Positions 4,433 to 55,428 of a stretch of DNA of 64,000 nt are shown one piece after another. Origin of the DNA: a virus. The notes under the pieces are model-generated. The model was not told the DNA's origin, ran no database searches, and was given only the letters and a program-made list of their open reading frames with translations. The number at the start of each line of letters is the position of its first letter. Position 1 is the stretch's first letter. Location: IMG/VR virus record IMGVR_UViG_3300028844_004984; one strand, written 5' to 3'. Position numbers and translations under genes: made by a program.

Positions 4433-4453
4433 TAAATTAATCGGAGTAACAAA

Positions 4454-4693
4454 ATGAAGTATTTGTATTTTTCAGCACAATGGTGCGGCCCTTGTAAAAG
4501 CTTGGGGCCAATTATGAACGAAGTATCAACACATATACCCGTTCAAAAAATAGATGTAGATAAAGACTACGAAATGGCACAAAAGTATGGTGTCAGAAAT
4601 GTCCCAACGGTTGTGTTGGTCAATGGTGATTCAGAAATCACTCGTATTATAGGTTCACATTCAAAGCAAAGATATTTGGATGCTATCAAATAA
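4454..4693 (+). CDS. Thioredoxin
   Basis: WCGPC motif, next to RNR. Confidence 0.92.
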   Translation: MKYLYFSAQWCGPCKSLGPIMNEVSTHIPVQKIDVDKDYEMAQKYGVRNVPTVVLVNGDSEITRIIGSHSKQRYLDAIK

Positions 4694-4706
4694 TTTTGTA
4701 TATTAG
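4675..4706 (+). promoter_or_regulatory. Bacteroidota-type promoter
   Basis: TTTGG-N19-TATATTAG. Confidence 0.7.
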
Positions 4707-4711
4707 TAGTT

Positions 4712-5146
4712 ATGAAAGAAGTATTAAATAAACTAAAAGAGTTTCACTCAACGTATGGGCACCCAATCGAATTAGAGCCCACAGCTCAAACAGAAGAAAT
4801 GGCTGAGTTGAGATACAAATTGGCAAAAGAAGAGTTAGATGAGTATTTGGAGGCAAATCAAAACGATGACCCTATTGAAATAGCAGATGCACTAGCTGAC
4901 CAGTTGTATATTTTGTTGGGAACAATGTTGGTTCACGGAATGCATGATGTTATCGAAGATGTGTTCAATGAAGTACATCGTTCCAATATGTCAAAGTTAG
5001 GTGAAGATGGTAACCCCATCTATCGTGATGACGGTAAGGTTATGAAAGGACCAAACTACACTAAACCAGAATTGGGTAGTATTATATCAAACGTTTGGAA
5101 AGAGAAACGAGCTCAGTTAAACATTCCGTTTAATGAGGAAGTTTAG
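4712..5146 (+). CDS. MazG-like / PRA-PH-family NTP pyrophosphohydrolase
   Basis: EELDE, DALAD.LY, EVHRSNMSK, R.DGKV.KG. Confidence 0.85.
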   Translation: MKEVLNKLKEFHSTYGHPIELEPTAQTEEMAELRYKLAKEELDEYLEANQNDDPIEIADALADQLYILLGTMLVHGMHDVIEDVFNEVHRSNMSKLGEDGNPIYRDDGKVMKGPNYTKPELGSIISNVWKEKRAQLNIPFNEEV

Positions 5147-5147
5147 G

Positions 5148-5351
5148 ATGGCCCTAAGAGGAGAATCCCACCCGGCACATAAACTTACTGAGGAGCAAGT
5201 AAACACTATCAGAAAACTATGGAAGATTGGGCATAGGAATGTTAGGGTTTTAGCAAGAAATCATAGCGTATCACCTGCGAATATTCGTAGAATTGTTAGG
5301 AATGAAACTTGGACACATTTGTTAGTGGGTGAGTTTGATAAATACCAATAA
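5148..5351 (+). CDS. Stand-alone HTH DNA-binding protein (HNH-endonuclease C-terminal type)
   Basis: GE.HP.HKLTEEQV..IR...LA...VS...I..I....W.H pattern; ATG at 5148. Confidence 0.7.
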   Translation: MALRGESHPAHKLTEEQVNTIRKLWKIGHRNVRVLARNHSVSPANIRRIVRNETWTHLLVGEFDKYQ

Positions 5352-6109
5352 TGAAGGAAGAGGGAAAGAACTATTGTGATGTATCAAAATTATCAATCCG
5401 ACCGATTTCTAAATCGGTAGCAAAGGGTATCATTATCAACAATCATTATAGTGGGTTGTGGACAAAGGTATCATACGCATTGGGTTTGTTCGTTGAGGAT
5501 GGTTCACATCAGTTTTTTGATTCTACAGATAAGTTGATTGGGGTTGCGTGTTATGGCGACCCCATTGGTAGATTGACTGGGCAATCCATATCGGAAACGT
5601 TAGATAGGACTGAGGTTTTAGAATTAGTTCGATTGTTCGTTTTTGATGGGTATGGTTCAAATATCGAAAGTTGGTTCTTATCACAAACATTTGATTGGCT
5701 GAGAACAAACGTTTCAAAGATAAAAGCACTCATATCCTACTCAGACCCAAAAGAAGGGCACGCTGGGACAATCTATCAAGCAACAAATTGGATTTATCAA
5801 GGTAACAAACTTAGATTCAATGATAGTTGGAGTTTTAAGTTTGAAGAAGATGGAAGATGGATACATGGTAAAACCATATTTCCACAATACAGAACAAACG
5901 ACCCTAAGAAGATACAAGAGCAGGTAAATAAACCTTTTTGGATTCGAAAAGAACCAAGAAAACATAGATACGTTTACATATTAGCTAGGGGCGGTGAGCG
6001 TAGGAAACTACTGAAGAATTTGAAACACCCAACATTTCCATATCCAAAGGGAAGTGAAGATGTTGAGATGGAAGTACATAAATTACAACCAATTGAAAGA
6101 AACGGATAA
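5351..6109 (+). CDS. Mom-like (GNAT-fold) DNA base-modification protein, paralog 1
   Basis: HYSG, GVACYG, ELVRL, N.ESWF, LISYSDP..GH.GTIYQATNW.Y.G, KHRYV: Mu Mom-family motif set. Confidence 0.8.
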   Translation: MKEEGKNYCDVSKLSIRPISKSVAKGIIINNHYSGLWTKVSYALGLFVEDGSHQFFDSTDKLIGVACYGDPIGRLTGQSISETLDRTEVLELVRLFVFDGYGSNIESWFLSQTFDWLRTNVSKIKALISYSDPKEGHAGTIYQATNWIYQGNKLRFNDSWSFKFEEDGRWIHGKTIFPQYRTNDPKKIQEQVNKPFWIRKEPRKHRYVYILARGGERRKLLKNLKHPTFPYPKGSEDVEMEVHKLQPIERNG

Positions 6110-6893
6110 AATATATTGTGATGTATCCAAAGTGCATATAGCACCAATCGCCAAATCGATTGCTAAGGATATCATCGTAAAGAAACACTACACTCACGCG
6201 TGGACTGCGTGTAGATATGCATTGGGCATCTACTATAAAACTGATGGTGATTCATTTCAGTTTGGAGATGATAAACTCATTGGTTGCGCAATATATGGAT
6301 TCCCAGTTGGAGCAAGAGCAGCAACCTCTGTATGTGAGGGATTAACTAAGGATAACGCATTGGAGTTGACCAGATTGTACATCGATGATGGGTATGGTTC
6401 GAATATCGAATCATATGCGATGGGACAAACATTCAAATGGTTGAAAGAAAACGATAAGAACATTAAGTTGTTGATATCGTATGCCGATGCGGGACAGGAA
6501 CACTTAGGTAAGATTTATCAGGCAACTAATTGGATTTATCAAGGGTTATCAACCGACATCGCACTAATGCCAAACTATGGTATCTCACTAACGAAAGACC
6601 CGTACAATTGGATTCATAGTAGAACGGTATATTCACTTTGGGGTAGTTCAAATTTAGACCACCTTAAAAACGAAATTGGTAAAGAGGGGCATAGTGAATT
6701 TTGGAGGAGAATGGAGCCACCAAAACACAGATACATCCAACTATTACCACAAAACAAAAAAGAGAAGAAAGATTTGATTAAACGGTTGAAGCATGAAATC
6801 AAACCATATCCAAAGAATACGGATGATTTTAATACAGAGGTTGTGAATCATAAAACAACTTATGTAGCTGAGAGTACCGAAAGTTTTTGGTGA
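6093..6893 (+). CDS. Mom-like (GNAT-fold) DNA base-modification protein, paralog 2
   Basis: Same motifs (ELTRL, ISYAD..Q.H.G.IYQATNW). TTG start at 6093 aligns MKETDKIYCDVSK with paralog 1 MKEEGKNYCDVSK. Confidence 0.8.
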   Translation: MKETDKIYCDVSKVHIAPIAKSIAKDIIVKKHYTHAWTACRYALGIYYKTDGDSFQFGDDKLIGCAIYGFPVGARAATSVCEGLTKDNALELTRLYIDDGYGSNIESYAMGQTFKWLKENDKNIKLLISYADAGQEHLGKIYQATNWIYQGLSTDIALMPNYGISLTKDPYNWIHSRTVYSLWGSSNLDHLKNEIGKEGHSEFWRRMEPPKHRYIQLLPQNKKEKKDLIKRLKHEIKPYPKNTDDFNTEVVNHKTTYVAESTESFW

Positions 6894-7384
6894 TGAATAA
6901 AGTGTTAGTTCTAAATTCAGATTACACCCCATTGAACGTAACAAATATGCGGCGTGGATTCATTCTTGTGATGAAAGGCAAGGCTGAAATTGTAAAAGAG
7001 GATGTGAACAAAATTGTAACTACGATTGGAGAGTTCGCTAAACCAATAATCATACGATTACTCAATTATATCGGATATCGGAATATGGGTATAAAGGTAA
7101 ATCGTAAACGGATTATGAAGCGTGATGGTTTTGAGTGTGGATATTGTGGTTCGAAAAAGAATCTTACAATCGACCATATCATTCCTAAATCTCGTGGTGG
7201 TGGTAACACTTGGGATAATTTGGTGACTTGTTGTAGTAGATGTAACACAATCAAAGATGATAGGACTCCCAAAGAAGCAGATATGGTATTGAGAGTTAAA
7301 CCACATCAACCATCTATATTTTCATCGGTAATTTCAGATGAAGTGGAAACTGAGTGGATTTTGTACAAAAAAAGTTTCCAATAA
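6893..7384 (+). CDS. HNH endonuclease (McrA/HNH_5 type)
   Basis: VLVLN.DY.P, RD...CGYCG, TIDHIIPKSRGG..TW.NLV.CC..CN..K. Confidence 0.9.
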   Translation: MNKVLVLNSDYTPLNVTNMRRGFILVMKGKAEIVKEDVNKIVTTIGEFAKPIIIRLLNYIGYRNMGIKVNRKRIMKRDGFECGYCGSKKNLTIDHIIPKSRGGGNTWDNLVTCCSRCNTIKDDRTPKEADMVLRVKPHQPSIFSSVISDEVETEWILYKKSFQ

Positions 7385-7385
7385 A

Positions 7386-7417
7386 TTTGGTAGATTGAAA
7401 AACATTCCTTATATTAG
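7386..7417 (+). promoter_or_regulatory. Bacteroidota-type promoter
   Basis: TTTGG-N19-TATATTAG. Confidence 0.75.
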
Positions 7418-7447
7418 TAGTATAAGAGATAAAATGTATGTACCCGT

Positions 7448-8581
7448 ATGAACTTTTGGGATAGTGTAGATTATAACAATGCTAGAAAGGTGTTGGTGAT
7501 ACCTAATATCACTAACTCTTCTAATATTGAAAAAGATTCGTTTATTGATGTGATACATAATCATATCAAAGGACTGGAGAAGTATGGTGAGTACTATTGG
7601 CATGTTTTAGTACCAACTGGAAATGTTACGAAGAAACTAAACTTACCAAATGTGAAACAACATCAGATTGATATTCCAGGTGATATGATGAACCAACGTT
7701 CGTTCCCATCTGATAAGTTGATGAAACTTCTAAAGGATATCGATTATGATGTAATCTATTCACACCTGCCCGATTGGCCTCAAGTCGGTAGATACAAAAA
7801 CGATATCAACACTAAAATAGTTGGGTATTGCCATTGGTGGGAAATGAAGTCCTGTAATGGTGTAGACCGTAGACCTGGTAAAGCAAAGTGGTTGTGGTTA
7901 CCCATCGAACTATTAGGTATATCTCAGATGGAAACCTGTTACTTAAATACACAAGACCAGAAGAATAGGGTGTTGGAAGAGGCGAGAGAAACATTCAATG
8001 AAGAGTTTGTTCAGAAGTTGGATGATATTCTCACTGTTTGGAACTTAGGATTGGAAGAATCCAAAATAGTATCCGAACCAAAATCAGAAAAGGAAAAGGT
8101 GATTGTATTCAACCACCGAGCAGCTGCATACAAGGGGTATCCTAAGTTTATGGAGTTGATGGAAGAATATCGTAAACAGCGACAGGATTTCAAAGTTTGG
8201 ATTCCGCAATTAAATGGTAAACCACCATATGGGTGGGTAGATACTACCAAAGTACCAAAGCATGAGTACTATAAGAGATTGCAGGATTGTACCGTCGGTG
8301 TACAGATGAGGCAAACGAATTATGGTTGGAGCGTGAGTGGTACTGATTGTATGATGAATGGAACTCCAATGATTTGGCAGGAATCCGATTGTTATCACGA
8401 AATCGACCCGAATGGTATGTTCTTCAAATACAAAAAAGAATTCTTTGAGTATTTGGATAAGATGTTAGATGATGAACCATTCCGAAAAGAGCAAGAGTTA
8501 AAATCAGTAGAGAGGGCAAACGAGCTATCTAAGAATGAGGGTAAAATGCTTGGAGAACTACACAAAAAGTTGTATATTTAA
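7448..8581 (+). CDS. GT-B fold glycosyltransferase adjacent to DNA polymerase (possible DNA glycosyltransferase)
   Basis: D.IYSH, VFNHR...YKG, WSVSGTDCMMNGTP (GT4-like E-x7-E equivalent). Confidence 0.7.
   Translation: MNFWDSVDYNNARKVLVIPNITNSSNIEKDSFIDVIHNHIKGLEKYGEYYWHVLVPTGNVTKKLNLPNVKQHQIDIPGDMMNQRSFPSDKLMKLLKDIDYDVIYSHLPDWPQVGRYKNDINTKIVGYCHWWEMKSCNGVDRRPGKAKWLWLPIELLGISQMETCYLNTQDQKNRVLEEARETFNEEFVQKLDDILTVWNLGLEESKIVSEPKSEKEKVIVFNHRAAAYKGYPKFMELMEEYRKQRQDFKVWIPQLNGKPPYGWVDTTKVPKHEYYKRLQDCTVGVQMRQTNYGWSVSGTDCMMNGTPMIWQESDCYHEIDPNGMFFKYKKEFFEYLDKMLDDEPFRKEQELKSVERANELSKNEGKMLGELHKKLYI
8549..8580 (+). promoter_or_regulatory. Bacteroidota-type promoter
   Basis: CTTGG-N19-TATATTTA; ATG of polymerase 12 nt after the start of TATATT. 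Confidence 0.65.
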
Positions 8582-8584
8582 GGT

Positions 8585-11101
8585 ATGTATCAAAACGCTT
8601 ATTACGAAAAAGAGGGTGGTATCATCCATTGCTGGGATGATGAAAAAGGTTACTTTACCAAAAAGTATCGTAACTATGGTTATGTTAGAGATGGTAATGG
8701 TTCTTACGAATCAATCTATGGGGAACGGTTGAAGAAGATTAACTTTTGGAAAAACGAAGATAATCTAAAACTTTATGAATCGGATGTAAATGAAATGACC
8801 CGTTTCTTAATCGATGAATATGGTGATTCAGACGAGGTATCCACTGGTCATACTGTACTAACCTTTGATATTGAGGTAGAGATGAATAGTGGACTGCCCG
8901 ATACAGATAAAGCAGAGAATACTATGACTTCTGTAGCATTCCACGATTCAGCAACAAACGATTATTATGCTTATGTACTAAGTGAGGGTGAAGAGATAAA
9001 CAAAACTATCAAAGGGGCTAAAGTCCGTTCCTTTCGTAGTGAAGAAGATATGTTGATAGCATTTGTAAATGCTTGGGAAGAGATTTCACCGACTATCATT
9101 ACGGGATGGAACATTGACTTCTTTGATGTTACATATTTGTACAATCGATTAAAGCGGGTACTTGGGACATCAACAGCAAATAGGCTATCCCCAATCAGAA
9201 AAGTACATTGGAACAAATATCGTAAACGTTACATCATCGCAGGTGTATCTGCATTGGATTACATCGCATTATTTAAGAACTTTACATATACGGAATATCC
9301 CAACTATCGCTTGGATACTATCGCTAAATTAGAATTAGGTAGAGGGAAGATTGAGTACGAAGGAAACTTAGACCAATTATTCAGAGATGATATTGAGAAG
9401 TTTGTTGAATATAACTTAGTTGATGTTGAGTTGGTGGTAGATATGGATAAGAAACTACAATTCATCGATTTGGCTAGAGCAATATGCCATGCGGGTCATG
9501 TGTTCTATGAAGATTTCTTATTCTCATCGAAATGGTTAGAGGGAGCAATTCTCACATTCCTTAGACGGAGTGGTAGGGTAGCTCCGAACAAACCACAGCG
9601 GATGTTTAAAAATGCTGATGGTTCTGATGGGGAAGGTAAGTTTATAGGTGCATATGTAAAACAACCAAAGCCCGGCCTTTACAAATGGGTATACGATTTG
9701 GATTTAACATCACTATACCCATCAATCATTATGAGTATCAATATCTCACCTGAAACTAAGATTGGTAAGGTGAAGAACTACTCCGCTGAAGAATCTATGA
9801 AGGGAAATATTGAATCATATTCTATTATAGATAATAATGGTAGTGAATCAAAGCCCGTATCAAAAGAACACTTTACCAACTTTATTGAACAACAAAAGCT
9901 ATCAATAGCATCAAATGGTGTGTTGTATTCACAGAATAGGGTTGGTATCATACCTGAGATTCTTAACGTGTGGTTTGATAAGAGAGTAGAGTACAAAGAC
10001 CTGATGAAAAAATATGGTAAAGAGGGTAATGATGAACTTTATAAGTTCTACTCTCAGCGCCAGTTGGTACAAAAAATTATGTTGAATTCCCTTTACGGAG
10101 TATTGGGATTACCATCATTCAGATTCTACGATGTTGATAACGCAGAAGCAGTAACACTTACAGGTCAGACTGTAATTAAAACAACTGAGATGATTGCCAA
10201 TCAATACTATAGTAAGAACATTGGTGAAACAAAAGATTACAACATCTATGTTGATACTGATTCTGTATTCTATGAAGCAGCACCATTGGTAAAGGCTAGG
10301 AATCCTAATATTGATGTAACATCTGATAAAGAAATGATTCCAGCTATTCTATCAGTTGCTAAAGAGGTTGAGGACCATATCAATAAAGTATATGATTCAA
10401 TGGCATTGAAAATGTTCAATATTAATTCACATAGATTTGATATTAAGCAAGAAACTATCGCTAAGGGTGGGTTTTGGGTATCTAAGAAAAGATACGCTCA
10501 ATGGATTATCAACGATAACACTGTAGATTGTGATAAGTTGGATGTGAAAGGATTGGATGTGAAACGTTCATCATTCCCAACTTACTTCAAAGAAGTGATG
10601 AGTACTGTGTTGATGGATATCCTAAAGGATGAGAACAAAGATAAAATTGATGAGTATATTCTTAGGAAGAAAGATGAGATGAAAACTACCAACTTTATCG
10701 ATATAGCAAAGAATTCAGCAGTTAAAGGTATGAGTAAGTATACATTTAAGAATCAAGCACTGGGTGAGTTTATGAAAGGAACACCAGCGCATGTTAAAGC
10801 AGCACTTACTTACAATCAACTATTGAAATATTATAATGCAGCATTTAAATTTGAACCAATGAAAGATGGTGATAAGATTAAGTGGGTGTATTTGAAACCT
10901 AATCCATTAGGATTAGACTCCGTTGGGTTGACGGGATATAACGACCCGAAAGAGATTTTGGATTTGGTAGAACAGCATATAGATTATGAGCTAATTTGGA
11001 CAAAAGAATTAGAGAATAAGTTAGATGATTTCTACAAAGCAATGGGGTGGGAAAAGCCAAATCCGAATCTAGCAAAAGCATCACAATTTTTTGGATTTTA
11101 A
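8585..11101 (+). CDS. Family B DNA polymerase (T4 gp43-like)
   Basis: FDIE, GWNIDFFD, YNLVD exonuclease motifs; DLTSLYPS, KIMLNSLYG, YVDTDS, KKRY. Confidence 0.97.
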   Translation: MYQNAYYEKEGGIIHCWDDEKGYFTKKYRNYGYVRDGNGSYESIYGERLKKINFWKNEDNLKLYESDVNEMTRFLIDEYGDSDEVSTGHTVLTFDIEVEMNSGLPDTDKAENTMTSVAFHDSATNDYYAYVLSEGEEINKTIKGAKVRSFRSEEDMLIAFVNAWEEISPTIITGWNIDFFDVTYLYNRLKRVLGTSTANRLSPIRKVHWNKYRKRYIIAGVSALDYIALFKNFTYTEYPNYRLDTIAKLELGRGKIEYEGNLDQLFRDDIEKFVEYNLVDVELVVDMDKKLQFIDLARAICHAGHVFYEDFLFSSKWLEGAILTFLRRSGRVAPNKPQRMFKNADGSDGEGKFIGAYVKQPKPGLYKWVYDLDLTSLYPSIIMSINISPETKIGKVKNYSAEESMKGNIESYSIIDNNGSESKPVSKEHFTNFIEQQKLSIASNGVLYSQNRVGIIPEILNVWFDKRVEYKDLMKKYGKEGNDELYKFYSQRQLVQKIMLNSLYGVLGLPSFRFYDVDNAEAVTLTGQTVIKTTEMIANQYYSKNIGETKDYNIYVDTDSVFYEAAPLVKARNPNIDVTSDKEMIPAILSVAKEVEDHINKVYDSMALKMFNINSHRFDIKQETIAKGGFWVSKKRYAQWIINDNTVDCDKLDVKGLDVKRSSFPTYFKEVMSTVLMDILKDENKDKIDEYILRKKDEMKTTNFIDIAKNSAVKGMSKYTFKNQALGEFMKGTPAHVKAALTYNQLLKYYNAAFKFEPMKDGDKIKWVYLKPNPLGLDSVGLTGYNDPKEILDLVEQHIDYELIWTKELENKLDDFYKAMGWEKPNPNLAKASQFFGF

Positions 11102-11133
11102 TTTGGATATTCCAAAATAAATTCGTATATTTA
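11102..11133 (+). promoter_or_regulatory. Bacteroidota-type promoter
   Basis: TTTGG-N19-TATATTTA. Confidence 0.75.
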
Positions 11134-11164
11134 AGACCAATAAACAATAAATAATTAATTTCAT

Positions 11165-11860
11165 ATGAAAAAAGCAAGTATTGAAAGTTTCATTAACCGA
11201 TACAATCTCGGTGGTGAAGTAGAATCGGTAAAGATTACATCTACTGATTCGGAGATGAAGGTAAGTTTTATCTCAGATGATAAAACTTTGTTAGGAGAGG
11301 TAACCTCTAAAGAGGGTGATTTTCCCAATGGTGAGTTTGGTGTTTACACAACTTCTCAGTTAAAAGCACTTTTGGGTGTATTAGAATCTAATGTGGAGGT
11401 TGACTCTACTGAATCTTACATCAAGTTTTCAGATAAGGGTACATCGGTTAATTATATGCTGGCAGACCTTTCTGTGATTCCAGTTGTTCCTGATTTGAAG
11501 CAAGTACCACCTTTCAACTCAGAAGTTACTTTGAACGATGAGTTTACATCTAAGTTTATCAAATCAAAAGGAGCGCTGAGTGAATCAGATACATTTACAT
11601 TTAGTTGTATTGGTGATAAGGGTGAGGTTGTTTTAGGATATTCCACAATTAACACTAACCGAATCTCAATCTCAGTAGAATGTAAGTGTGATGGGGATGT
11701 ACAACCAATCTCATTTTCAGCTAAGTATCTGAAAGAAATCCTAAATGCTAACAGAGCCTCTAAATCTGCTACATTAAAAATTTCATCGCAGGGGCTTTCT
11801 TACATTGAATTTGAAACAGATACCATCACATCAAAATACTATTTGGTAGAGATTAAATAA
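11165..11860 (+). CDS. Sliding clamp (T4 gp45-like)
   Basis: 231 aa between polB and clamp loader; EFGVY...L..L, Y.LAD, IS..GL, Y.L pattern. Confidence 0.8.
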   Translation: MKKASIESFINRYNLGGEVESVKITSTDSEMKVSFISDDKTLLGEVTSKEGDFPNGEFGVYTTSQLKALLGVLESNVEVDSTESYIKFSDKGTSVNYMLADLSVIPVVPDLKQVPPFNSEVTLNDEFTSKFIKSKGALSESDTFTFSCIGDKGEVVLGYSTINTNRISISVECKCDGDVQPISFSAKYLKEILNANRASKSATLKISSQGLSYIEFETDTITSKYYLVEIK

Positions 11861-13074
11861 TGAGTATGAACTTTTGGGATACAGAACCAGCTAAACCAAT
11901 CTTTGACTTTGAAACTCAAAAGAGGGAGTTAATCGAAAATATGGATTATCTATCTTCGATGACAGTTGAAGAACAAACACTTTACAAAAAGTGGGTTGAG
12001 TTACAAGAGCCCTCTATGATTAGGGATAAATCGCACATTGCGGAACTATACCCAACACAGTGGGCTCCGGCTGATATTAACAATTTGGAACAAACCATTT
12101 CGGAGATTGAAGCGTTAGAACCTTATGTTGAGATTGTAGAAGATGCTAAGGATTCTACTAAATGGGCATATCTCAGAAGGATGATTCATACAATGGGGTT
12201 TACCGCCAATCCTGGTCGAAACGTTAAGATTAATGTTAAAGATAGGGTTACTGGAAAGCTTTTAGGGCAGATATCACTAGCATCTGATGTAACCTCTATG
12301 AAGGTTAGAGATGACTATATTGGGTGGAGTAAAGATAATAAGTTCGTAGATAAAAAACTCAACCATACTACAATAGCATCTACAATTGTGTGTACTCAGC
12401 CACTTGGATTTAACTTCTTAGGTGGTAAGTTAGTTGCTATGATGACCACTGTGCCTGAAGTGAGGGAGTTTTGGAAAGATAAATATGGCCAGACCCTTAT
12501 AGCAGTTGGGACTACATCTCTGTATGGAATTCACTCTCAGTACAATGGTATTCCTCACTTCAAAACATTAGGTGAATCGGCCGGAAAGATTTCAATAAAA
12601 CCAGATGATAAGTACTACGAACCTTGGCATCAATGGATTAAAGAAAACAGAGCAGATTGGTACGAAACTGCAATTACGAATGAAAGAATCCGTAATGGTA
12701 AAAGTATGGGTGTAGCAAGTGGGCCTGTAAGTGGTATCAAACAAAAGATTCTTGGGCAGATATTCAAAGAATGTGGTATCAAACAATCAGATTATCATCA
12801 TGGGTTTAAAAGAGGTGTATATCTCGCTATGATGTATGAGAATGGGCCGGAGTTCCTTAAAGGTGAAATTGGTGAAGATGAGCTAAAGATGAAGCAGAAG
12901 TTCGAAGAGGGTGTGGATTACATCAGTAGATGGTGGAAGAAAAAGGCAATAAAACGATACACCAAACTACACTCTGAAGGTAGATTGAAGCCAGAGCATT
13001 TGTTCTATATCGATGCGATTGGTATGAGTTGGGAAGATATGAAAAGTAAGTATTTGAAAGAAGTTGGTAGATAA
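11860..13074 (+). CDS. DUF4338 / DruA-like protein
   Basis: PGR...V.D..TGK.LG.I.L.S....RD.YIGW, QP.G.N.LGGKL.A, TTSLYG..SQY. Confidence 0.75.
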   Translation: MSMNFWDTEPAKPIFDFETQKRELIENMDYLSSMTVEEQTLYKKWVELQEPSMIRDKSHIAELYPTQWAPADINNLEQTISEIEALEPYVEIVEDAKDSTKWAYLRRMIHTMGFTANPGRNVKINVKDRVTGKLLGQISLASDVTSMKVRDDYIGWSKDNKFVDKKLNHTTIASTIVCTQPLGFNFLGGKLVAMMTTVPEVREFWKDKYGQTLIAVGTTSLYGIHSQYNGIPHFKTLGESAGKISIKPDDKYYEPWHQWIKENRADWYETAITNERIRNGKSMGVASGPVSGIKQKILGQIFKECGIKQSDYHHGFKRGVYLAMMYENGPEFLKGEIGEDELKMKQKFEEGVDYISRWWKKKAIKRYTKLHSEGRLKPEHLFYIDAIGMSWEDMKSKYLKEVGR

Positions 13075-14006
13075 TGAATAACACAGAAAACACACTTTGG
13101 GTTGAGAAGTACAGACCCGATACATTGGAAGGGTATGTTGGAAACGAACATATCCTTGAGAAAGTAAAGATTTACATTGAGAATGAGGATGTACCTCACT
13201 TGCTACTCTATGGTGTGGCGGGTACTGGTAAGACTACCCTCGCTAAAATCATTACCAATCAGATTGATTGTGATGTGATGTACATCAACGCTTCGGATGA
13301 AAACAACGTAGATACAGTTAGGGATAAGATTAGAGGATTCGCATCATCGATGGGATTCCGTAAGTGGAAAGTGATTATTTTGGATGAGAGCGATTACCTA
13401 ACTCCGAACGCACAGGCGGCACTTCGTAATCTAATGGAAACGTTCTCCAAAACAACACGATTCATTTTGACGTGTAACTATGTTGAAAAAATCATCGACC
13501 CAATTCAGAGTAGATGCCAAACGTTTGGTATTACACCACCATCTAAGAAAGAGGTGGCGCTGCGTTTGAAAGAGATTTTGGATTCTGAGAATGTATCATA
13601 TGAGATGCAGGATTTAGCTATTTTGGTAAATAGTGGATATCCTGATATTCGTAGAGTTCTGAACGCAGGACAACGGCAGGTTATAAAGGGTGAATTGAAG
13701 ATTGATAAAACATCAACGATTCAAGCGAATTATATGGATGAGGTATTGAATGTACTTAAATCTGATGGTAATGTAAAAGAGGTGTTCCTAAAGAGTAGGC
13801 AGATTATCGCAGATTCAAAAGTTAAGGACTTCACACCATTCTACAGATTTTTGTACGATAATGTAGATGATTTCGCAGCTGGAAAAGTGGGTAACACAAT
13901 AATCAAAATTGCAGATGCTCAATACAAAGATGCATCAGTAGTGGATAAAGAAATCAACATCGTAGCGATGTTATTGGAAATTTTAATTGATATCAAAGGA
14001 AAATAA
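13074..14006 (+). CDS. Clamp loader ATPase subunit (T4 gp44 / RFC small-like)
   Basis: WVEKYRP, GVAGTGKTT, NASDE, LDE.D, SRC. Confidence 0.95.
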   Translation: MNNTENTLWVEKYRPDTLEGYVGNEHILEKVKIYIENEDVPHLLLYGVAGTGKTTLAKIITNQIDCDVMYINASDENNVDTVRDKIRGFASSMGFRKWKVIILDESDYLTPNAQAALRNLMETFSKTTRFILTCNYVEKIIDPIQSRCQTFGITPPSKKEVALRLKEILDSENVSYEMQDLAILVNSGYPDIRRVLNAGQRQVIKGELKIDKTSTIQANYMDEVLNVLKSDGNVKEVFLKSRQIIADSKVKDFTPFYRFLYDNVDDFAAGKVGNTIIKIADAQYKDASVVDKEINIVAMLLEILIDIKGK

Positions 14007-14008
14007 TT

Positions 14009-14278
14009 ATGGCAAAAGGAAAGGGAAAATCAAAAATAGTTGGAATGGGACAACCAACACAACAAGCACCACAAATGCAGTTAGACCCAACAAAGTTACC
14101 AACGGTACATTGTGAGAATTGTGATTCTATTTTTTGGGAAGAAGTGACAATGTTCAAAGAAGTTCCAGCGGTTCAATCACCGAATGGGCAGAAATCAATG
14201 TTACCAATTCCTGTAGTTAGATGTGCAGAGTGTGGGCATGTATCGGAAAAGTTTTTACCTAAAGAGTTATTACCTTAA
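14009..14278 (+). CDS. Small zinc-ribbon protein
   Basis: CENC ... CAECGH. Confidence 0.65.
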   Translation: MAKGKGKSKIVGMGQPTQQAPQMQLDPTKLPTVHCENCDSIFWEEVTMFKEVPAVQSPNGQKSMLPIPVVRCAECGHVSEKFLPKELLP

Positions 14279-14733
14279 TGGCAAAAAAGAAAAGTGATAA
14301 CACTGTAAAGGCTAAGAGTATCTTCCAACATCTTAGTGGTATAAAGGAGAAAAAAGATTCTTGGGAATCTCTATCTGAGATGGATAAGAAATCATTTACT
14401 CCATTTATCATAAATCGTTGGTTAAGTATGAACTTGGACTTACTACCTATCATAAATGTACTACAGAAGTACACAATCGGCTTGTTATCCGCCAGAGATG
14501 TATACAAAGTGTATTTGGATTTTCTACCAAAGCAAAAAACATTTGATAAGTACATCAAAGGTAAGAAAGATGGTAAGTACAACAAAGAGTTACTACAACA
14601 CCTATCAACTTGGTATGGTGTATCACATAGAGAAGTAATTGATTATTTGGATATACTACCAAAGGATGAGGTGATTTCGATTCTAATGAAGTATGGTATG
14701 ACCGATAAGGAAGCAAAAAAGTTATTGAAATGA
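14278..14733 (+). CDS. Clamp loader small subunit (T4 gp62-like)
   Basis: F.PFIINRWLS, LPK.K.F.KYIK, Y.VS.RE...YL.IL; position after gp44-like gene. Confidence 0.7.
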   Translation: MAKKKSDNTVKAKSIFQHLSGIKEKKDSWESLSEMDKKSFTPFIINRWLSMNLDLLPIINVLQKYTIGLLSARDVYKVYLDFLPKQKTFDKYIKGKKDGKYNKELLQHLSTWYGVSHREVIDYLDILPKDEVISILMKYGMTDKEAKKLLK

Positions 14734-15140
14734 GCGAAGTATTAAGAGAATCAAAAACCAAAGTAGTTCACAGAGGTGAGCGAGTGGTTACAACGAATAA
14801 AGAAGAAACTGCAGTACAATACTGCGAACGAATGTATCCTGATACCACAAATGAGTTCAAAGTTATTTTGGATGAGATGTATGATACATTCTGTAAGAAG
14901 CAACGTAACTATGGGCCAGGTAATATTTCGGTGGGAACTGATTTGAAAACCGATGATGATAAGAAGTTATCATTAACTGGGCTGTGGTTCAGAATCAACG
15001 ATAAGGTTCAGCGATTGAAGCAATTGGTTGTATTAGGTCAACCAGATGAGGTTGGAGAATCAGTACAAGATACATATCAGGATTTGAGTGTATATGGTGT
15101 GATTGCTCAGATTGTTCAACGTGGAAAGTGGGCTAAATGA
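14730..15140 (+). CDS. DUF1599 / nucleotide-modification-associated domain 1 (Nmad1)-like protein
   Basis: F.KK..NYG..N, G.WFRINDK.QRL, ESV.DT..DL.VY. Confidence 0.75.
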   Translation: MSEVLRESKTKVVHRGERVVTTNKEETAVQYCERMYPDTTNEFKVILDEMYDTFCKKQRNYGPGNISVGTDLKTDDDKKLSLTGLWFRINDKVQRLKQLVVLGQPDEVGESVQDTYQDLSVYGVIAQIVQRGKWAK

Positions 15141-15574
15141 ACTGGAATGAATATTTCAGAGGTATAGCACACCAAGTAAAACTAAAATCAAAGGATGAAC
15201 GTACTCAGATAGGTGCTGTTATCGTTGGAACTGATAACGAAATCGTATCAACTGGGTACAATTCATTTCCCAGAGGTATTGTTGATTCTAAATCAGAAAG
15301 ACAAGAAAGGCCTGAAAAATACTATTGGTTTGAGCACGCAGAACGAAACGCAATCTACAACGCAGCTAGAATTGGAGTATCCACGAAAGGTTGTAGAATG
15401 TATCTAACTTGTGGTATTCCGTGTTCTGATTGTGCTAGGGGTATTATAAACGCAGGTATCATCGAAATCTATTGTGAGCGAGAGGGTGGTGCAACGGGCA
15501 GTAAGTGGGATGAATCAGCTATCCGTTCAATGAAGATGTTCAATGAAACTGGAATAGAAATAAAATTCTATTAA
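15137..15574 (+). CDS. dCMP deaminase
   Basis: GYN, HAE.NAI, PCSDC zinc motifs. Confidence 0.92.
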   Translation: MNWNEYFRGIAHQVKLKSKDERTQIGAVIVGTDNEIVSTGYNSFPRGIVDSKSERQERPEKYYWFEHAERNAIYNAARIGVSTKGCRMYLTCGIPCSDCARGIINAGIIEIYCEREGGATGSKWDESAIRSMKMFNETGIEIKFY

Positions 15575-15596
15575 TTCAAAAAAATTAATCAAAATA

Positions 15597-15628
15597 GTTG
15601 GATATTCCAAATAATTTTCTTATATTAG
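15597..15628 (+). promoter_or_regulatory. Bacteroidota-type promoter
   Basis: GTTGG-N19-TATATTAG. Confidence 0.7.
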
Positions 15629-15632
15629 TGTA

Positions 15633-16580
15633 GTGAAAGATAGTAAGATAAATAACGTATTTTCTCTTGGTATTAGAGAACCCAGTGATGGAGATGTTGG
15701 GGTATCATACTCCCAATACACAATGTATGCTAATTGCCCACATCAATGGAAGCTGAACTATATGGATGGTAACAGAACGTTTGACCCATCCATACATTTG
15801 GTGTTTGGTACAGCAATGCATGAAACACTACAAGAGTGGTTGGATATACTGTACAACAAATCACCCAAAGAAGCATCTGAGATAGATTTGGGTAAGATGT
15901 TGTATGAGTGTATGATTACCGAATATACAAAGATGCGTAAACAGACTGGTGTTGAATTTAGTTCACCATCTGAAATGGAGGAGTTCTTAGAAGATGGAAT
16001 TGAGATTCTGAACTTTGTTACAAAGAATCGCTTGGATTACTTCAATACACGTCATATGAAACTTCTAGCCATTGAGTTACCAATCTACGCTAAAGCTATG
16101 GAATCTCATAATGTATATATGAGAGGGTTCTTAGATTTGGTGTTTGAGGATACATATGAGAATAAGATTCAGATTTGGGATATCAAAACATCAACAATGG
16201 GTTGGAATAAGTGGCAAAAAGCAGATAAAACCAAAACAGCTCAGTTGGTTCTGTACAAAAAATTCCTATCCGAACAATTTGGTTACCCAATTGATAACAT
16301 CAGTACCAAATACTTCATCGTAAAGAGAAAGTTGCACGAAGGTATGATGTTTGCTCAAAAGAGGGTGCAAGAATTTGTACCTTCTAGTGGTAAACCCACA
16401 CTAAATAAGATAACAAAAAGTTTTGAAGATTTCATCAGAAATTCATTCAACGAAGATGGTAGCTACCGAAAAGAATCTGAGTTCCCTGCTATGGCGGGTA
16501 AGAACAATAAGAATTGTAAGTGGTGTCCGTTCAAAAATGATTTTGAGAAATGTCCGAAAGAGAATAGACATAAAGTATGA
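15633..16580 (+). CDS. PD-(D/E)XK RecB/Cas4-like exonuclease
   Basis: SYSQ...CP, GTAMH, G.LD, DIKT, QL.LY, C-terminal CKWCPF...C. Confidence 0.85.
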   Translation: MKDSKINNVFSLGIREPSDGDVGVSYSQYTMYANCPHQWKLNYMDGNRTFDPSIHLVFGTAMHETLQEWLDILYNKSPKEASEIDLGKMLYECMITEYTKMRKQTGVEFSSPSEMEEFLEDGIEILNFVTKNRLDYFNTRHMKLLAIELPIYAKAMESHNVYMRGFLDLVFEDTYENKIQIWDIKTSTMGWNKWQKADKTKTAQLVLYKKFLSEQFGYPIDNISTKYFIVKRKLHEGMMFAQKRVQEFVPSSGKPTLNKITKSFEDFIRNSFNEDGSYRKESEFPAMAGKNNKNCKWCPFKNDFEKCPKENRHKV

Positions 16581-17119
16581 AGAAGATTTTATTGATTGTA
16601 CCATTTTTGGTTGCAGCTGGGATTTCCAATAATCGGTTCAATTTAGAACCGATTGTGGTATTACAACCAAAAGAAATAAAAGGTGATACACCTAACTCAG
16701 CTAAGTTAAAAACTATCACAAATTATGTTGATTGGACACCATTAATCCGAGCTATGATTCAAGTCGAAAGTCGAGGTAATGATTCGGCATATAACAAACG
16801 TGAGGAAGCTGTGGGATGTTTACAAATCAGACCAATTATGCTAAAAGAATGTAATCGTATTCTAACGCTGATTGGTGTTGATAAACAATACACATTAGAT
16901 GATAGGTGGAATCGAACTAAATCAATTGAAATATTTTATGTAGTAAACAATCATCATCACAAAAATGGAACATATGAAGAAATCGCGAGGGCCTGGAATG
17001 GTGGTCCGAACTGGGCTAAAAAGGGCGGTACAAAAAGATATTGGAAAAAAGTACAAAAGCAACTCAAAAAACAATTTAAAGAAAATGAACGTAGCGGTGA
17101 TAGGTTCTCCGAAGTATGA
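16577..17119 (+). CDS. Lysozyme-like / lytic transglycosylase with signal peptide
   Basis: IQVES.G, GCLQI, AR.WNGGP; hydrophobic N-terminus. Confidence 0.8.
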   Translation: MKKILLIVPFLVAAGISNNRFNLEPIVVLQPKEIKGDTPNSAKLKTITNYVDWTPLIRAMIQVESRGNDSAYNKREEAVGCLQIRPIMLKECNRILTLIGVDKQYTLDDRWNRTKSIEIFYVVNNHHHKNGTYEEIARAWNGGPNWAKKGGTKRYWKKVQKQLKKQFKENERSGDRFSEV

Positions 17120-17480
17120 GAATGTTAGAAAGTTGCGAGAATTTCTGTTCACAATCAAAGAAAAGCTAGGAACTGAAATTAACATTATAAGTAGGGGTAA
17201 TAAAGATGGTTGTGAAAAATATGTTCGTAAGTATACATTAGAGTTTGGGTTAAGATACACCGAATACAACGCAGCACATACGAACAGAAATCTATACAGT
17301 GGTATGAGTGATGAGTACTATGATAAACCATTTCATCCAACACAAACATTACATCAATATGATTGTATAGTAAAACACGCTGATAAATTATTCTACTTTG
17401 GTGGTATAAAAGCATCTGAGCAAAGACACTTCGAAAAATTGCTAAAACGGTATGGAAAGCGTGTTACATATATGGTTTAA
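17085..17480 (+). CDS. SLOG-superfamily (DUF2493/YspA-like) protein
   Basis: MNVAVIGS..Y, ISRG..DGCE; ATG 17085. Confidence 0.55.
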   Translation: MNVAVIGSPKYENVRKLREFLFTIKEKLGTEINIISRGNKDGCEKYVRKYTLEFGLRYTEYNAAHTNRNLYSGMSDEYYDKPFHPTQTLHQYDCIVKHADKLFYFGGIKASEQRHFEKLLKRYGKRVTYMV

Positions 17481-17494
17481 TTAAATCGATTTAG

Positions 17495-17502
17495 ATACTT
17501 AT
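17495..17502 (+). promoter_or_regulatory. Putative phage late promoter (ATA[CT]TTAT class)
   Basis: ATACTTAT in the intergenic gap before the glycan island. Confidence 0.55.
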
Positions 17503-20760: not shown

Positions 20761-20818
20761 CTGATTATCAACACGATAGCTATGATAGTGAGCACAAAAG
20801 TAAAAAGTACGGATGATA

Positions 20819-20850
20819 TTTGTTTAAATGAACATTTTTTCGTATATTAG
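20819..20850 (+). promoter_or_regulatory. Bacteroidota-type promoter
   Basis: TTTGT-N19-TATATTAG. Confidence 0.7.
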
Positions 20851-20868
20851 TAGTAATATAGATACATT

Positions 20869-33921: not shown

Positions 33922-33930
33922 TACAAACAA

Positions 33931-35013: not shown

Positions 35014-35021
35014 GGTAAGTT

Positions 35022-53270: not shown

Positions 53271-55424
<2,154 letters not shown>

Positions 55425-55428
<4 letters not shown>

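What the first reader, a model, noticed from the sequence alone, without database searches (positions are those of the whole stretch)
4712..15574. Candidate replisome-coupled DNA hypermodification system: tandem Mom paralogs, GT-B, DruA-like and Nmad1-like genes interleaved with pol/clamp/clamp loader
Seen: two paralogous Mom-like genes (5351-6109, 6093-6893), a GT-B glycosyltransferase directly upstream of polB, a DUF4338/DruA-like gene wedged between clamp and clamp loader with overlapping stop/start codons, and an Nmad1/DUF1599-like gene coupled to dCMP deaminase; a MazG-like NTP-PPase precedes the block. Known: Mu Mom (GNAT fold) modifies adenine in replicating DNA, T4 AGT/BGT are GT-B DNA glucosyltransferases, and Nmad1 is associated with base-modification loci. 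Inference: these proteins form a multi-step base-modification pathway (for example a Mom1/Mom2 heterodimer plus sugar transfer), and the DruA-like protein is a phage DNA-modifying enzyme rather than a defence protein. I do not know of a described pathway with this combination.
Basis: partly seen in the sequence, partly recalled or inferred. Interest (0 to 1): 0.85.

Follow-up and report, generated by a model that had tools for sequence, protein, structure and literature searches.

The report
Replisome-embedded Mom pair and DruA-like enzyme
A large uncultured ocean phage carries, inside its DNA-replication genes, two copies of the Mom enzyme that disguises adenine in DNA, plus a third Mom-shaped enzyme of the bacterial "DruA" family wedged between the sliding clamp and its loader. 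This points to an undescribed DNA-marking step, but the proposed sugar step is not supported.

Summary
The window lies in a 113-kb IMG/VR phage record of a widespread marine lineage with a T4-type replisome.

Mom1 and Mom2 are 44% identical. Both keep the Mu Mom catalytic residues and differ most in the insertion proposed to contact DNA.

The DruA-like protein is a GNAT. In a search of 48,161 PDB representatives its confident model matches Mu Mom best (Z 10.1; next 8.6). Its gene overlaps the clamp and clamp-loader genes (TAATG at both junctions).

In 71 related loci, DruA-like and Mom are either both present (40) or both absent (31). Five complete or near-complete genomes agree. A tree needs only two joint changes.

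Four cyanomyovirus genera independently carry the DruA-like gene between clamp-loader genes gp44 and gp62, mostly without Mom.

GT-B, MazG, HNH, DUF1599-like and dCMP deaminase vary independently. No hydroxymethylase was found, so a single sugar-containing pathway is unsupported.

Best reading: tRNA-dependent adenine "momylation" by two Moms, plus a clamp-operon-linked second acyltransferase, probably acting on DNA.

Earlier notes of this scan on Mom-linked tRNA-Gly look-alikes were only partly reproduced here.

The parts
4674..4704 (+). Promoter-like motif ATTTGG-N19-TATATT in front of the MazG-HTH-Mom1-Mom2 unit
   Evidence: The motif has 7 + strand matches in the window against 0.29 expected. 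All lie just upstream of genes.
4712..5146 (+). MazG/PRA-PH-type nucleotide pyrophosphohydrolase. It is variable among relatives and is probably nucleotide-pool housekeeping.
   Evidence: PF01503 E 3e-16 and phrog_671. It was found in only 3 of the 32 related loci surveyed, though some do not reach that far upstream.
5133..5351 (+). 72-aa basic ORF with a weak HTH signal. It overlaps the Mom1 start and is conserved together with the Mom pair.
   Evidence: HTH_38 E 0.009 and phrog_517 E 2e-5. It is 57-97% identical in relatives and always lies directly before Mom1. Sequence.
5351..6109 (+). Mom1, a Mom-family GNAT. By homology with Mu Mom it is predicted to transfer glycine from Gly-tRNA-Gly to N6 of adenine in dsDNA.
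   Evidence: PF25680 148.5 bits. PDB 8BV8 (Mu Mom) E 1e-10. The equivalents of H58, Y59, R111, S124, D149 and Y159 are kept.
6093..6893 (+). Mom2, a paralogue of Mom1 (44% identity) with a longer and different HTH-like insertion
   Evidence: PF25680 153.7 bits. Comparison with Mom1. Catalytic residues are kept; some orthologues have D149N. TTG start at 6093.
6887..7384 (+). HNH endonuclease, probably a mobile homing element and not part of the system
   Evidence: PF14279 and PF01844. Present only in the two closest relatives.
7385..7415 (+). Promoter-like motif in front of GT-B and PolB
   Evidence: BLAST matched this stretch to the DNA just upstream of the tRNA-Gly-like gene of relative G001.
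7448..8581 (+). Divergent GT4-like (GT-B) glycosyltransferase with an unknown acceptor. It is only loosely associated with Mom and DruA.
   Evidence: Sub-threshold GT4/GT1 matches to both halves. Its Atlas neighbours are viral clusters and then bacterial GT4. No PDB or phage-record homologue. Co-occurrence figures.
8585..11101 (+). Family B DNA polymerase (gp43-like)
   Evidence: PF00136 and PF03104. 48% identical to PolB of Microcystis phage Mel-JY01.
11101..11131 (+). Promoter-like motif in front of the clamp-DruA-clamp loader unit
11165..11860 (+). Sliding clamp (gp45/PCNA-like)
   Evidence: Weak PCNA_C match. 33-36% identical to the ORFs that precede the DruA-like genes in L113 and L115.
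11860..13074 (+). DruA-like (DUF4338) GNAT, translationally coupled between the clamp and the clamp loader. Proposed to be a second, replisome-linked acyl or aminoacyl transferase.
   Evidence: PF14236 78.8 bits. PADLOC DruA. AF2 model pLDDT 93. Best structural match is Mu Mom 8BV8, Z 10.1. Overlaps. Synteny.
13074..14006 (+). Clamp loader large subunit (gp44-like AAA+)
   Evidence: AAA, DNA_pol3_delta2 and Gp44_lid.
14009..14278 (+). Zn-ribbon protein, part of the backbone replisome operon
   Evidence: Weak Mcm10 zinc-motif match. An ORF in the same position exists in Mel-JY01.
14278..14733 (+). Clamp loader small subunit (gp62-like)
   Evidence: Phage_clamp_A 26.9 bits, just below the cut-off of 27.
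14730..15140 (+). DUF1599-like small helical protein of unknown role
   Evidence: PF07659 24.3 bits against a cut-off of 25. phrog_1485 E 6e-15, function unknown. Present only in the closer relatives.
15137..15574 (+). dCMP deaminase, ordinary dTTP-supply metabolism
   Evidence: PF00383 E 1e-19. Present only in the window and its two closest relatives.

Best explanation
The stretch is the replication module of a large marine phage. Compared with the nearest cultured relative, which lacks them, two kinds of DNA-directed GNAT enzymes have been inserted into it.

(1) One unit, led by a phage promoter-like motif, encodes MazG, a small HTH-like protein, Mom1 and Mom2. By homology with Mu Mom, each Mom takes glycine from charged tRNA-Gly and puts it on N6 of adenine in double-stranded DNA after replication. 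The adduct then rearranges to N6-carbamoylmethyl-adenine, which blocks host restriction. The two paralogues most likely cover different sequence contexts, or form a heterodimer.

(2) The DruA-like GNAT is translated from the same message as the clamp and the clamp loader. It is most likely a second nucleic-acid acyl or aminoacyl transferase working at or just behind the fork. It would either mark a further base or context, or further acylate the Mom adduct.

What is shown: gene identities, conserved catalytic residues, the GNAT fold, structural kinship to Mom, and synteny. What is inferred: the substrate, donor and product of the DruA-like enzyme, and any contact with the clamp.

GT-B, HNH, the DUF1599-like gene and dCMP deaminase are neighbours, not steps of one pathway.
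For: Mom:
- Pfam matches are far above the cut-off, and both paralogues align to PDB 8BV8.
- The equivalents of H58, Y59, R111, S124, D149 and Y159 are kept in both paralogues and in most orthologues; the paralogue-specific differences lie in the 175-209 insertion.
- The mechanism and the essential residues come from PMC13219725.

DruA-like:
- The AF2 model has pLDDT 93.
- In an unbiased structure search Mu Mom ranks first (Z 10.1, rmsd 3.5 Å, 164 aligned residues) with the next GNAT at Z 8.6. FemA, which depends on aminoacyl-tRNA, also appears at Z 7.8.
- After DruA-like proteins themselves, the BFVD hits include a protein named Mom and others annotated as endonuclease-like or homing endonuclease, which may be the Mom-endonuclease fusions described in PMC7824862; that was not checked.
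- DUF4338 is called a GNAT in PMC10853773.
- ParB_N-DruA fusions exist.

Linkage:
- TAATG overlaps at both junctions.
- The order clamp, DruA, clamp loader is conserved in every long related locus, and in lineages where the DruA-like protein is only 38-50% identical and the clamp 33-36% identical.
- In four cyanomyovirus genera the DruA-like gene lies between gp44 and gp62.
- Mel-JY01 has the same backbone without DruA, Mom or GT-B.
- Co-occurrence of DruA and Mom across loci is 40:0:0:31, and it also holds across five complete or near-complete genomes.
- The same promoter-like motif precedes all three units.
Against: - No sequence-level relation between the DruA-like and Mom profiles was found (hhalign probability 0.2%). 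No weak Pfam Mom matches occur in 45 family members. Foldseek does not list Mom among its top 50 PDB hits.
- Mom's catalytic Arg and Ser have no obvious counterparts among the conserved DruA-like motifs. This was judged from motif position only, because no residue-level superposition was available.
- The margin of Z 10.1 over 8.6 is modest.
- On a PolB+clamp tree the DruA and Mom states change together only twice, so the co-occurrence statistic is inflated by shared ancestry.
- Outside this phage group the DruA-like gene usually occurs without Mom: in S-PRM1, S-T4, HTVC008M and Mosig.
- GNATs often acetylate proteins, and operon placement fits a protein target such as the clamp equally well.
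- No chemistry was measured.
Confidence: 0.5

Rival explanations
1. One reading: MazG, Mom1/Mom2, GT-B, DruA-like, the Nmad1-like gene and dCMP deaminase form one multi-step hypermodification pathway that ends in a glycosylated base.
For: All these genes lie within 11 kb, on one strand, behind the same promoter-like motif. GT-B is more common in DruA-positive loci (28 of 40) than in DruA-negative loci (3 of 31). A large glycan-synthesis cluster follows at 17.5-36 kb.
Against: GT-B occurs without Mom and DruA (L160, L182, L184, L190), and Mom plus DruA occur without GT-B (the L165-type clade). dCMP deaminase, MazG and HNH are each seen in only a few relatives, and the DUF1599-like gene only in the closer ones. 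GT-B does not match the T4 glucosyltransferase families and has no phage-record homologue. No ThyA-type hydroxymethylase occurs in the record, and a complete relative has only one ThyA-family gene, a strong match to the thymidylate synthase model.
Confidence: 0.08
2. The DruA-like GNAT is a protein acetyltransferase that modifies the clamp, the clamp loader or another replication or host protein. It tunes replication or takes over the host and does not touch DNA.
For: Its gene sits inside the clamp/clamp-loader operon in two unrelated phage groups, at different junctions. It carries a near-canonical GNAT motif A, Q-P-x-G-x-N, followed by an invariant GGK, which fits acyl-CoA binding. Phage GNATs that acetylate host proteins are known (Rac, cited in PMC7824862).
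Against: The best structural neighbour is the DNA-modifying Mom, not a protein acetyltransferase. ParB_N fusions point to DNA. Within this phage group it strictly accompanies Mom.
Confidence: 0.22
3. The DruA-like gene is a defence or counter-defence gene: a decoy or antagonist of host Druantia, or a phage-borne exclusion gene.
For: It belongs to the DruA family by both Pfam and PADLOC. The Phold preprint flagged the cyanophage homologues as similar to defence proteins.
Against: No DruB-E genes are nearby. It is 77-93% identical across the 80 best of 256 related IMG/VR loci, and it is more conserved than PolB between two clades, which is unlike fast-evolving decoys. Its conserved translational coupling to clamp genes is hard to explain on this reading.
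Confidence: 0.08
4. There is no functional link. The replisome module is simply a tolerated insertion site where unrelated accessory genes accumulate.
For: HNH, MazG, dCMP deaminase and other ORFs do come and go at these junctions. The tree needs only two joint changes of DruA and Mom.
Against: The clamp-to-DruA overlap persists at 38-50% protein identity. Independent insertion next to clamp-loader genes in cyanophages would be a coincidence. In L113 a Mom gene itself lies between gp44 and gp62.
Confidence: 0.1

Closest known systems
Phage Mu Mom (PF25680; PDB 8BV8; Silva et al., Nat Commun 2026, PMC13219725)
   Same: Mom1 and Mom2 are clear family members with the catalytic residues and the HTH-like insertion. 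The DruA-like model has Mom as its best solved structural neighbour.
   Different: There are two diverged tandem copies instead of one. They sit in a replication module, not at a genome end under Com control. The DruA-like protein shares no detectable sequence similarity with Mom, and no counterparts of Mom's catalytic Arg/Ser were evident.
DruA of type I Druantia (PF14236/DUF4338; PADLOC DruA)
   Same: The same domain family by Pfam and PADLOC. PMC10853773 calls DUF4338 a GNAT.
   Different: No DruB-E partners. The gene is encoded by a phage and coupled to clamp and clamp-loader genes. The function of bacterial DruA itself is unknown. One preprint reports m6A-type signals in Druantia cells that have no methylase (10.1101/2024.04.14.589459).
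T4-like cyanophage gene cluster 'T4-GC 1216' (S-SM2, S-SSM7, S-PRM1, S-T4), noted as DruA-like in the Phold preprint 10.1101/2025.08.05.668817
   Same: Homologous GNAT core, 27-31% identical over about 65% of the protein. It is also embedded in the clamp-loader operon.
   Different: It is inserted between gp44 and gp62 rather than between the clamp and gp44. It lacks the N-terminal ~115 residues. It mostly occurs without Mom.
FemX/FemA/FemB of Staphylococcus with non-proteinogenic tRNA-Gly
   Same: GNAT-fold paralogues that take glycine from charged tRNA. FemA appears among the structural matches (Z 7.8).
   Different: Their acceptor is a peptidoglycan precursor, not DNA. The analogy to stepwise action of Mom1, Mom2 and the DruA-like protein is speculative.
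T4 alpha- and beta-glucosyltransferases (GT-B DNA glycosyltransferases)
   Same: Probably the same GT-B fold class as the gene at 7448-8581.
   Different: No sequence match. No hydroxymethyl-pyrimidine pathway was found. The window's GT resembles GT4 enzymes.

Membership tests
Mom family (PF25680) | Full-length match to the family model above the curated cut-off | tested here: met
   Mom1 148.5 bits and Mom2 153.7 bits against a cut-off of 27.1, model positions 2-202.
Mom family (PF25680) | Catalytic R111 and S124 (plus H58, Y59, D149, Y159) of Mu Mom | tested here: met
   All are present in Mom1 and Mom2. R151 is K in Mom1 and G in Mom2, but it is not conserved across the family.
Mom family (PF25680) | Use of Gly-tRNA-Gly and formation of N6-carbamoylmethyl-dA in dsDNA | not testable with these tools
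   This needs biochemistry. No tRNA was found in the window or in the 113-kb record.
DruA / DUF4338 (PF14236) | Match to the family model above the cut-off | tested here: met
   78.8 bits against 27. PADLOC DruA E 6.8e-17.
Type I Druantia system | DruA encoded together with DruB, DruC, DruD and the DruE helicase | tested here: not met
   The neighbours are the clamp, the clamp loader and PolB. No Druantia partners appear in Pfam scans of the ORFs of about 170 aa or more across the window (shorter ORFs outside 4.4-17.5 kb were not scanned).
Mom-like DNA-modifying GNAT (for the DruA-like protein) | Structural similarity to Mom above other GNATs | tested here: met
   8BV8 ranks first of 48,161 chains (Z 10.1 against 8.6 for the next). 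The margin is modest.
Mom-like DNA-modifying GNAT (for the DruA-like protein) | Sequence or profile homology to Mom, and Mom's catalytic residues | tested here: not met
   hhalign probability 0.2%. No weak Mom matches in 45 members.
GT-B / GT4 glycosyltransferase | Match to GT4 N- and C-terminal domain models | tested here: inconclusive
   All matches are below the cut-offs, but both halves match in the right order, and 8 of 14 members match each of the two GT families. No structure was predicted.
T4-type DNA glucosyltransferases | Homology to AGT or BGT, and presence of a hydroxymethyl-base pathway | tested here: not met
   No such Pfam match. No phage-record homologue. No ThyA-type gene in the record, and only one in a complete relative, a strong match (317 bits) to the thymidylate synthase model. 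The record is 59% complete.
Nmad1 / DUF1599 (PF07659) | Match above the cut-off | tested here: inconclusive
   24.3 bits against 25, model positions 18-59 of 61.

The most novel reading that the evidence does not exclude
The DruA-like GNAT is a clamp-tethered enzyme that modifies DNA during replication and works in series with the two Moms, as FemX, FemA and FemB do. Using phage-encoded non-decoding tRNA-Gly, the three would build an extended or N-acylated glycyl adduct on adenine. By extension, bacterial DruA would be the unidentified DNA-marking enzyme of type I Druantia, which would account for the 'm6A-like' signals reported in cells that have no methylase.
Probability: 0.13. Interest if true: 0.9.

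Novelty: new variant of a known kind. Interest (0 to 1): 0.64.

Why it matters
Mom chemistry was solved only in 2026, and it was described as the work of a single enzyme. This locus shows a widespread phage lineage that keeps two diverged Moms together with a third, Mom-shaped GNAT.

Genes of that third family are placed again and again inside clamp and clamp-loader operons of large marine phages, including well-known cyanomyoviruses.

This gives a concrete and cheap experiment for a family (DUF4338/DruA) whose role in Druantia defence is still unknown. It also suggests that some DNA modifications may be coupled physically to the replisome.

Tried and rejected
- Single-sequence AF2 of the DruA-like protein gave pLDDT 36 and was discarded.
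- Foldseek against the PDB gave only weak GNAT hits, and Mom was not among the top 50.
- hhalign of the DruA-like alignment against a 21-sequence Mom alignment gave no signal.
- A Pfam scan of 45 DruA-like members at E up to 10 gave no weak Mom or acetyltransferase matches.
- Megablast of the locus against phage records found nothing.
- GT-B: phmmer and a profile search against PDB sequences, and tblastn against phage records, all found nothing.
- The DUF1599-like protein has no meaningful match to PDB sequences.
- A tRNA-like element inside or near the Mom or DruA genes of the window: Rfam at E up to 10 over 4400-17500 (including the tRNA model) and ARAGORN on the whole window found none.
- Relaxed ARAGORN on the 113-kb record found no Gly-like tRNA.
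- BLAST of the tRNA-Gly-like gene of relative G001 against five related genomes found nothing.
- The small HTH-like ORF shows no similarity to the HTH ORF that precedes the Mom gene of Microbacterium phage Lifes.
- A sigma-70 promoter and terminator scan gave counts at chance level.
- The tree-aware test of DruA/Mom co-occurrence is underpowered, with only 2 independent pairs.

Full report
**What the window is.** All long ORFs are on the + strand and G+C is about 36%. The window is bases 43117-107116 of a 113,339-bp IMG/VR virus record that CheckV rates 59% complete. The gene content is that of a large phage: DnaB, ribonucleotide reductase, PolB, clamp, gp44/gp62-type clamp loader, a T9SS-tagged protein, a SusC-like receptor and GroEL. 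The T9SS tag and the SusC-like receptor point to a Bacteroidota host. The nearest cultured relative by PolB is Microcystis phage Mel-JY01 at 48% identity, followed by T4-like cyanophages at about 31%.

**Check of the observation.**
- MazG/PRA-PH
- two Mom-family genes (148.5 and 153.7 bits against a cut-off of 27.1)
- PolB
- a PCNA-like clamp
- a DruA/DUF4338 gene (78.8 bits against 27)
- gp44-like and gp62-like clamp-loader genes
- dCMP deaminase

Mom1 and Mom2 are 44% identical. The DruA-like gene overlaps the clamp stop and the clamp-loader start by one base each, TAATG in both cases. Two labels are weaker than stated:
- The glycosyltransferase has only sub-threshold GT4 matches, although both halves match in the right order and 8 of 14 family members match each of the two GT families.
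- The DUF1599 match is 24.3 bits against a cut-off of 25.

Mom2 starts at a TTG, judged by N-terminal homology with Mom1. In-frame ATG and GTG codons lie 33 and 39 bases upstream.

**Transcription units.** The motif ATTTGG-N19-TATATT occurs seven times on the + strand against 0.29 expected. It sits just upstream of DnaB, MazG, GT-B, the clamp and three later genes. This suggests three units in the finding:
- MazG, HTH-like ORF, Mom1, Mom2 (and HNH)
- GT-B and PolB
- clamp, DruA-like, gp44, Zn-ribbon, gp62, DUF1599-like, dCMP deaminase

That this motif is a promoter is an inference.

**The Mom pair.** Silva et al. (PMC13219725) showed the following for Mu Mom:
- It is a dimeric GNAT.
- It transfers glycine from Gly-tRNA-Gly to N6 of adenine in dsDNA after replication.
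- The adduct rearranges to N6-carbamoylmethyl-dA.
- R111 and S124 are essential, and H58, Y59, D149, R151 and Y159 are important.
- An HTH-like insertion (residues 175-209) is required and is modelled in the DNA major groove.

Both window paralogues align to the Mom crystal sequence 8BV8. In a 21-sequence alignment both keep H58, Y59, R111, S124, D149 and Y159. R151 varies throughout the family. Some Mom2 orthologues have D149N. Mom1-type and Mom2-type sequences differ consistently in the insertion. I infer that both are active and differ in DNA context, or that they pair as a heterodimer. Neither was tested. Mom homologues occur in 321 phage records, so a Mom gene by itself is ordinary. A conserved tandem pair is a variant of that.

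**The DruA-like protein.**
- Abundance: 2,801 proteins match it in the large protein collection (E up to 0.001), and it matches 1,039 clusters at 50% identity.
- Fusions: some relatives are fused to ParB_N or DUF3102 domains.
- Earlier statements: PMC10853773 states that DUF4338 is a GNAT.
- Model: with a 45-sequence alignment AF2 gives pLDDT 93 and pTM 0.88.
- Foldseek: it finds only weak GNAT matches in the PDB.
- Exhaustive structure search: alignment to 48,161 PDB representatives puts Mu Mom 8BV8 first (Z 10.1, rmsd 3.5 Å, 164 aligned residues, model residues 81-334). The next GNAT scores 8.6, and FemA, which depends on aminoacyl-tRNA, scores 7.8.
- Viral structures: in BFVD the first hits are DruA-like proteins of uncultured phages and of three giant viruses. 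Weaker hits follow that include a protein named Mom and several annotated as endonuclease-like or homing endonuclease.
- Profile comparison: no relation to Mom is detectable.
- Motifs: the conserved DruA-like motifs are SD...RDxYIGW, a near-canonical motif A (QPxGxN) followed by GGK, and TTTSLYG..SQY. They do not look like Mom's Arg/Ser pair.

So the protein is Mom-shaped, but its donor and acceptor remain open.

**Conservation of the arrangement.** IMG/VR holds at least 256 relatives of the DruA-like gene; the 80 best are 77-93% identical. In all 32 loci of 10 kb or more, genes follow the order HTH-like ORF, Mom1, Mom2, variable genes, GT-B, PolB, clamp, DruA-like, gp44, gp62 as far as each contig extends. 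A few carry a single Mom, or show other genes after gp44.

Between the window's clade and a second clade, the DruA-like protein is 77-80% identical and Mom1 65-79%. PolB is only 54-58%, the clamp 59-66% and gp44 54-58%. This suggests stronger constraint on the modification genes, or their exchange between clades.

In three more distant lineages the DruA-like protein is only 38-50% identical, and in two of them the clamp was compared and is 33-36% identical. The DruA-like gene still starts at or next to the stop codon of the preceding clamp-sized ORF. In two of the three the AAA+ clamp loader follows, directly or after one ORF; in L111 no loader was annotated within the contig. In L113 a Mom gene lies between gp44 and gp62. 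Mel-JY01 has the same backbone (thioredoxin, PolB, clamp, loader, Zn-ribbon, gp62, PD-(D/E)XK, IMPDH, a glycosyltransferase) but no DruA-like gene, no Mom and no GT-B.

**Co-occurrence.** I sampled the clamp family without regard to DruA. Combined with the first set, 71 loci have at least 6.5 kb upstream and 1.5 kb downstream of the clamp.

| State | Loci |
|---|---|
| DruA-like and Mom both present | 40 |
| DruA-like only | 0 |
| Mom only | 0 |
| Neither | 31 |

At 90% clamp identity these loci form 10 clusters with both genes and 11 with neither. Whole-genome searches agree. Two complete or near-complete relatives have two Moms and one DruA-like gene. Two complete relatives and Mel-JY01 have neither.

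Most of this is shared ancestry. On a PolB+clamp tree of 49 distinct rows the two traits change together only twice, which is too few for a sign test. Two further lineages carry both genes in different arrangements but are not on the tree (L124/L125 and L113).

GT-B behaves differently. It is present in 28 of 40 DruA-positive loci and in 3 of 31 DruA-negative loci. It is absent from a whole DruA+Mom clade.

**An independent case in cyanophages.** tblastn finds DruA-like genes in 31 phage records, namely T4-like cyanomyoviruses and pelagimyophages. In S-PRM1, S-SSM7, S-T4 and S-SM2, which belong to four genera, the gene lies between gp44 and gp62, usually with overlapping stops and starts. In the pelagiphages it lies in the replication/recombination block about 6 kb from the clamp gene. 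Mom is absent from S-PRM1, S-T4, HTVC008M and Mosig. In S-SSM7 it is present but far away. So the DruA-like enzyme can work without Mom, and its tie to clamp and loader genes arose at least twice. The Phold preprint had already flagged the cyanophage proteins as DruA-like by structure. I found no paper that notes the operon placement; 'DUF4338' occurs in only four papers of the library.

**tRNA lead.** Earlier notes of this scan report non-canonical tRNA-Gly look-alikes linked to Mom or DUF4338 genes, including in this genome. What I could check:
- No tRNA-like element lies in the window or in the 113-kb record.
- In the complete relative G001, relaxed ARAGORN finds one tRNA-Gly(UCC)-like gene. 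BLAST matched its upstream flank to the promoter-like stretch before GT-B and to two other places in the record.
- HTVC008M has DUF4338 but no Mom. Its only tRNA is a tRNA-Gly with the unusual anticodon ACC, 3.9 kb from the DUF4338 gene.
- S-SSM7 has a tRNA-Gly(UCC) 3.2 kb from its DruA-like gene.
- Mosig has no tRNA-Gly in its genome. ARAGORN found no tRNA within about 6 kb of the DruA-like genes of S-PRM1 and S-T4; their whole genomes were not searched.

The link is suggestive and unproven.

**The remaining genes.**
- GT-B keeps GT4-type signature positions: an invariant NHR...YKG and a D in place of the first E of EX7E (A3 consensus; this interpretation rests on general knowledge of GT4). 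It has no PDB or phage-record homologue. Its Atlas neighbours are viral clusters and then bacterial GT4 enzymes.
- No ThyA or ThyX homologue is in the record. A complete relative has one ThyA-family gene, a strong match (317 bits) to the thymidylate synthase model. I therefore see no source of a hydroxymethyl base for a sugar.
- MazG, HNH and dCMP deaminase are each found in only a few relatives, and the DUF1599-like gene only in the closer ones.
- A 19-kb glycan-synthesis cluster follows at 17.5-36.2 kb. Its target is unknown. The virion or the host surface is likelier than DNA.

**Verdict.** There is a conserved, replisome-embedded set of three GNATs (Mom1, Mom2 and the DruA-like protein), and the DruA-like protein is structurally nearest to Mom. 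The wider "pathway" with sugar transfer, Nmad1 and dCMP deaminase is not supported. The chemistry of the DruA-like enzyme is the open and interesting point. One preprint reports m6A-type signals in Druantia-carrying cells that have no methylase. If DruA enzymes modify adenine as Mom does, that would be explained.

Noticed in passing
window 17523-36233: A cluster of about 19 kb for glycan synthesis. It holds two GT1/GT4 genes (one matching 'GT4-conflict'), four GT2 genes, UDP-glucose dehydrogenase, TOD1/MUCI70-type and PLOD-type glycosyltransferases, a 2-hydroxyacid dehydrogenase, a CMP-sugar cytidylyltransferase, NeuB, an epimerase/dehydratase, two methyltransferases and an IMPDH/GMP reductase. 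The first two GT genes are conserved in relatives.
   Followed up: partly
window 207, 4674, 7385, 11101, 27336, 50765, 56566 (+ strand): The promoter-like motif ATTTGG-N19-TATATT occurs seven times against 0.29 expected, always just upstream of genes. BLAST matched the stretch around 7385 to the DNA upstream of the tRNA-Gly-like gene of relative G001.
   Followed up: partly
L210:5677-6828, L211:5689-6831, L212:5716-6828, L213:4707-5765: In four T4-like cyanophage genera (S-PRM1, S-SSM7, S-T4, S-SM2) the DruA-like gene ('T4-GC 1216') lies between clamp-loader genes gp44 and gp62.
   Followed up: yes
L004:11944-12017 (Pelagibacter phage HTVC008M): The only tRNA of this 147-kb phage is a tRNA-Gly with anticodon ACC, 3.9 kb from its DUF4338 gene. 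The phage has no Mom gene.
   Followed up: partly
L093:15872-15944 (complete relative G001, 252.6 kb): A non-canonical tRNA-Gly(UCC)-like gene that only relaxed ARAGORN detects and the Rfam tRNA model misses. This genome has no canonical tRNA at all.
   Followed up: partly
L113:12041-12868: In a distant relative, a Mom gene (preceded by a ClpP-like gene) lies between clamp-loader genes gp44 and gp62. The DruA-like gene follows the clamp in the same locus.
   Followed up: partly
proteins P0128, P0135, P0140, P0267, P0271: DruA-like domains fused to ParB_N or DUF3102, or followed by GIY-YIG/NUMOD3 homing-endonuclease domains.
   Followed up: partly
BFVD hits of the DruA-like model: DruA-like domains occur in giant viruses of eukaryotes (Faunusvirus, Yasminevirus, Dasosvirus), some inside proteins of about 1,200 residues.
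   Followed up: no
window 53274-54881, 55425-56585, 59908-62622: The phage encodes a GroEL-type chaperonin, a SET-domain protein and a SusC-like TonB-dependent receptor.
   Followed up: no
L042, L061, L074 (Mom2 orthologues): Some Mom2 orthologues carry Asn at the position of Mu Mom D149, a residue whose alanine mutant is nearly inactive. Mom2 may be changing function in part of the lineage.
   Followed up: no
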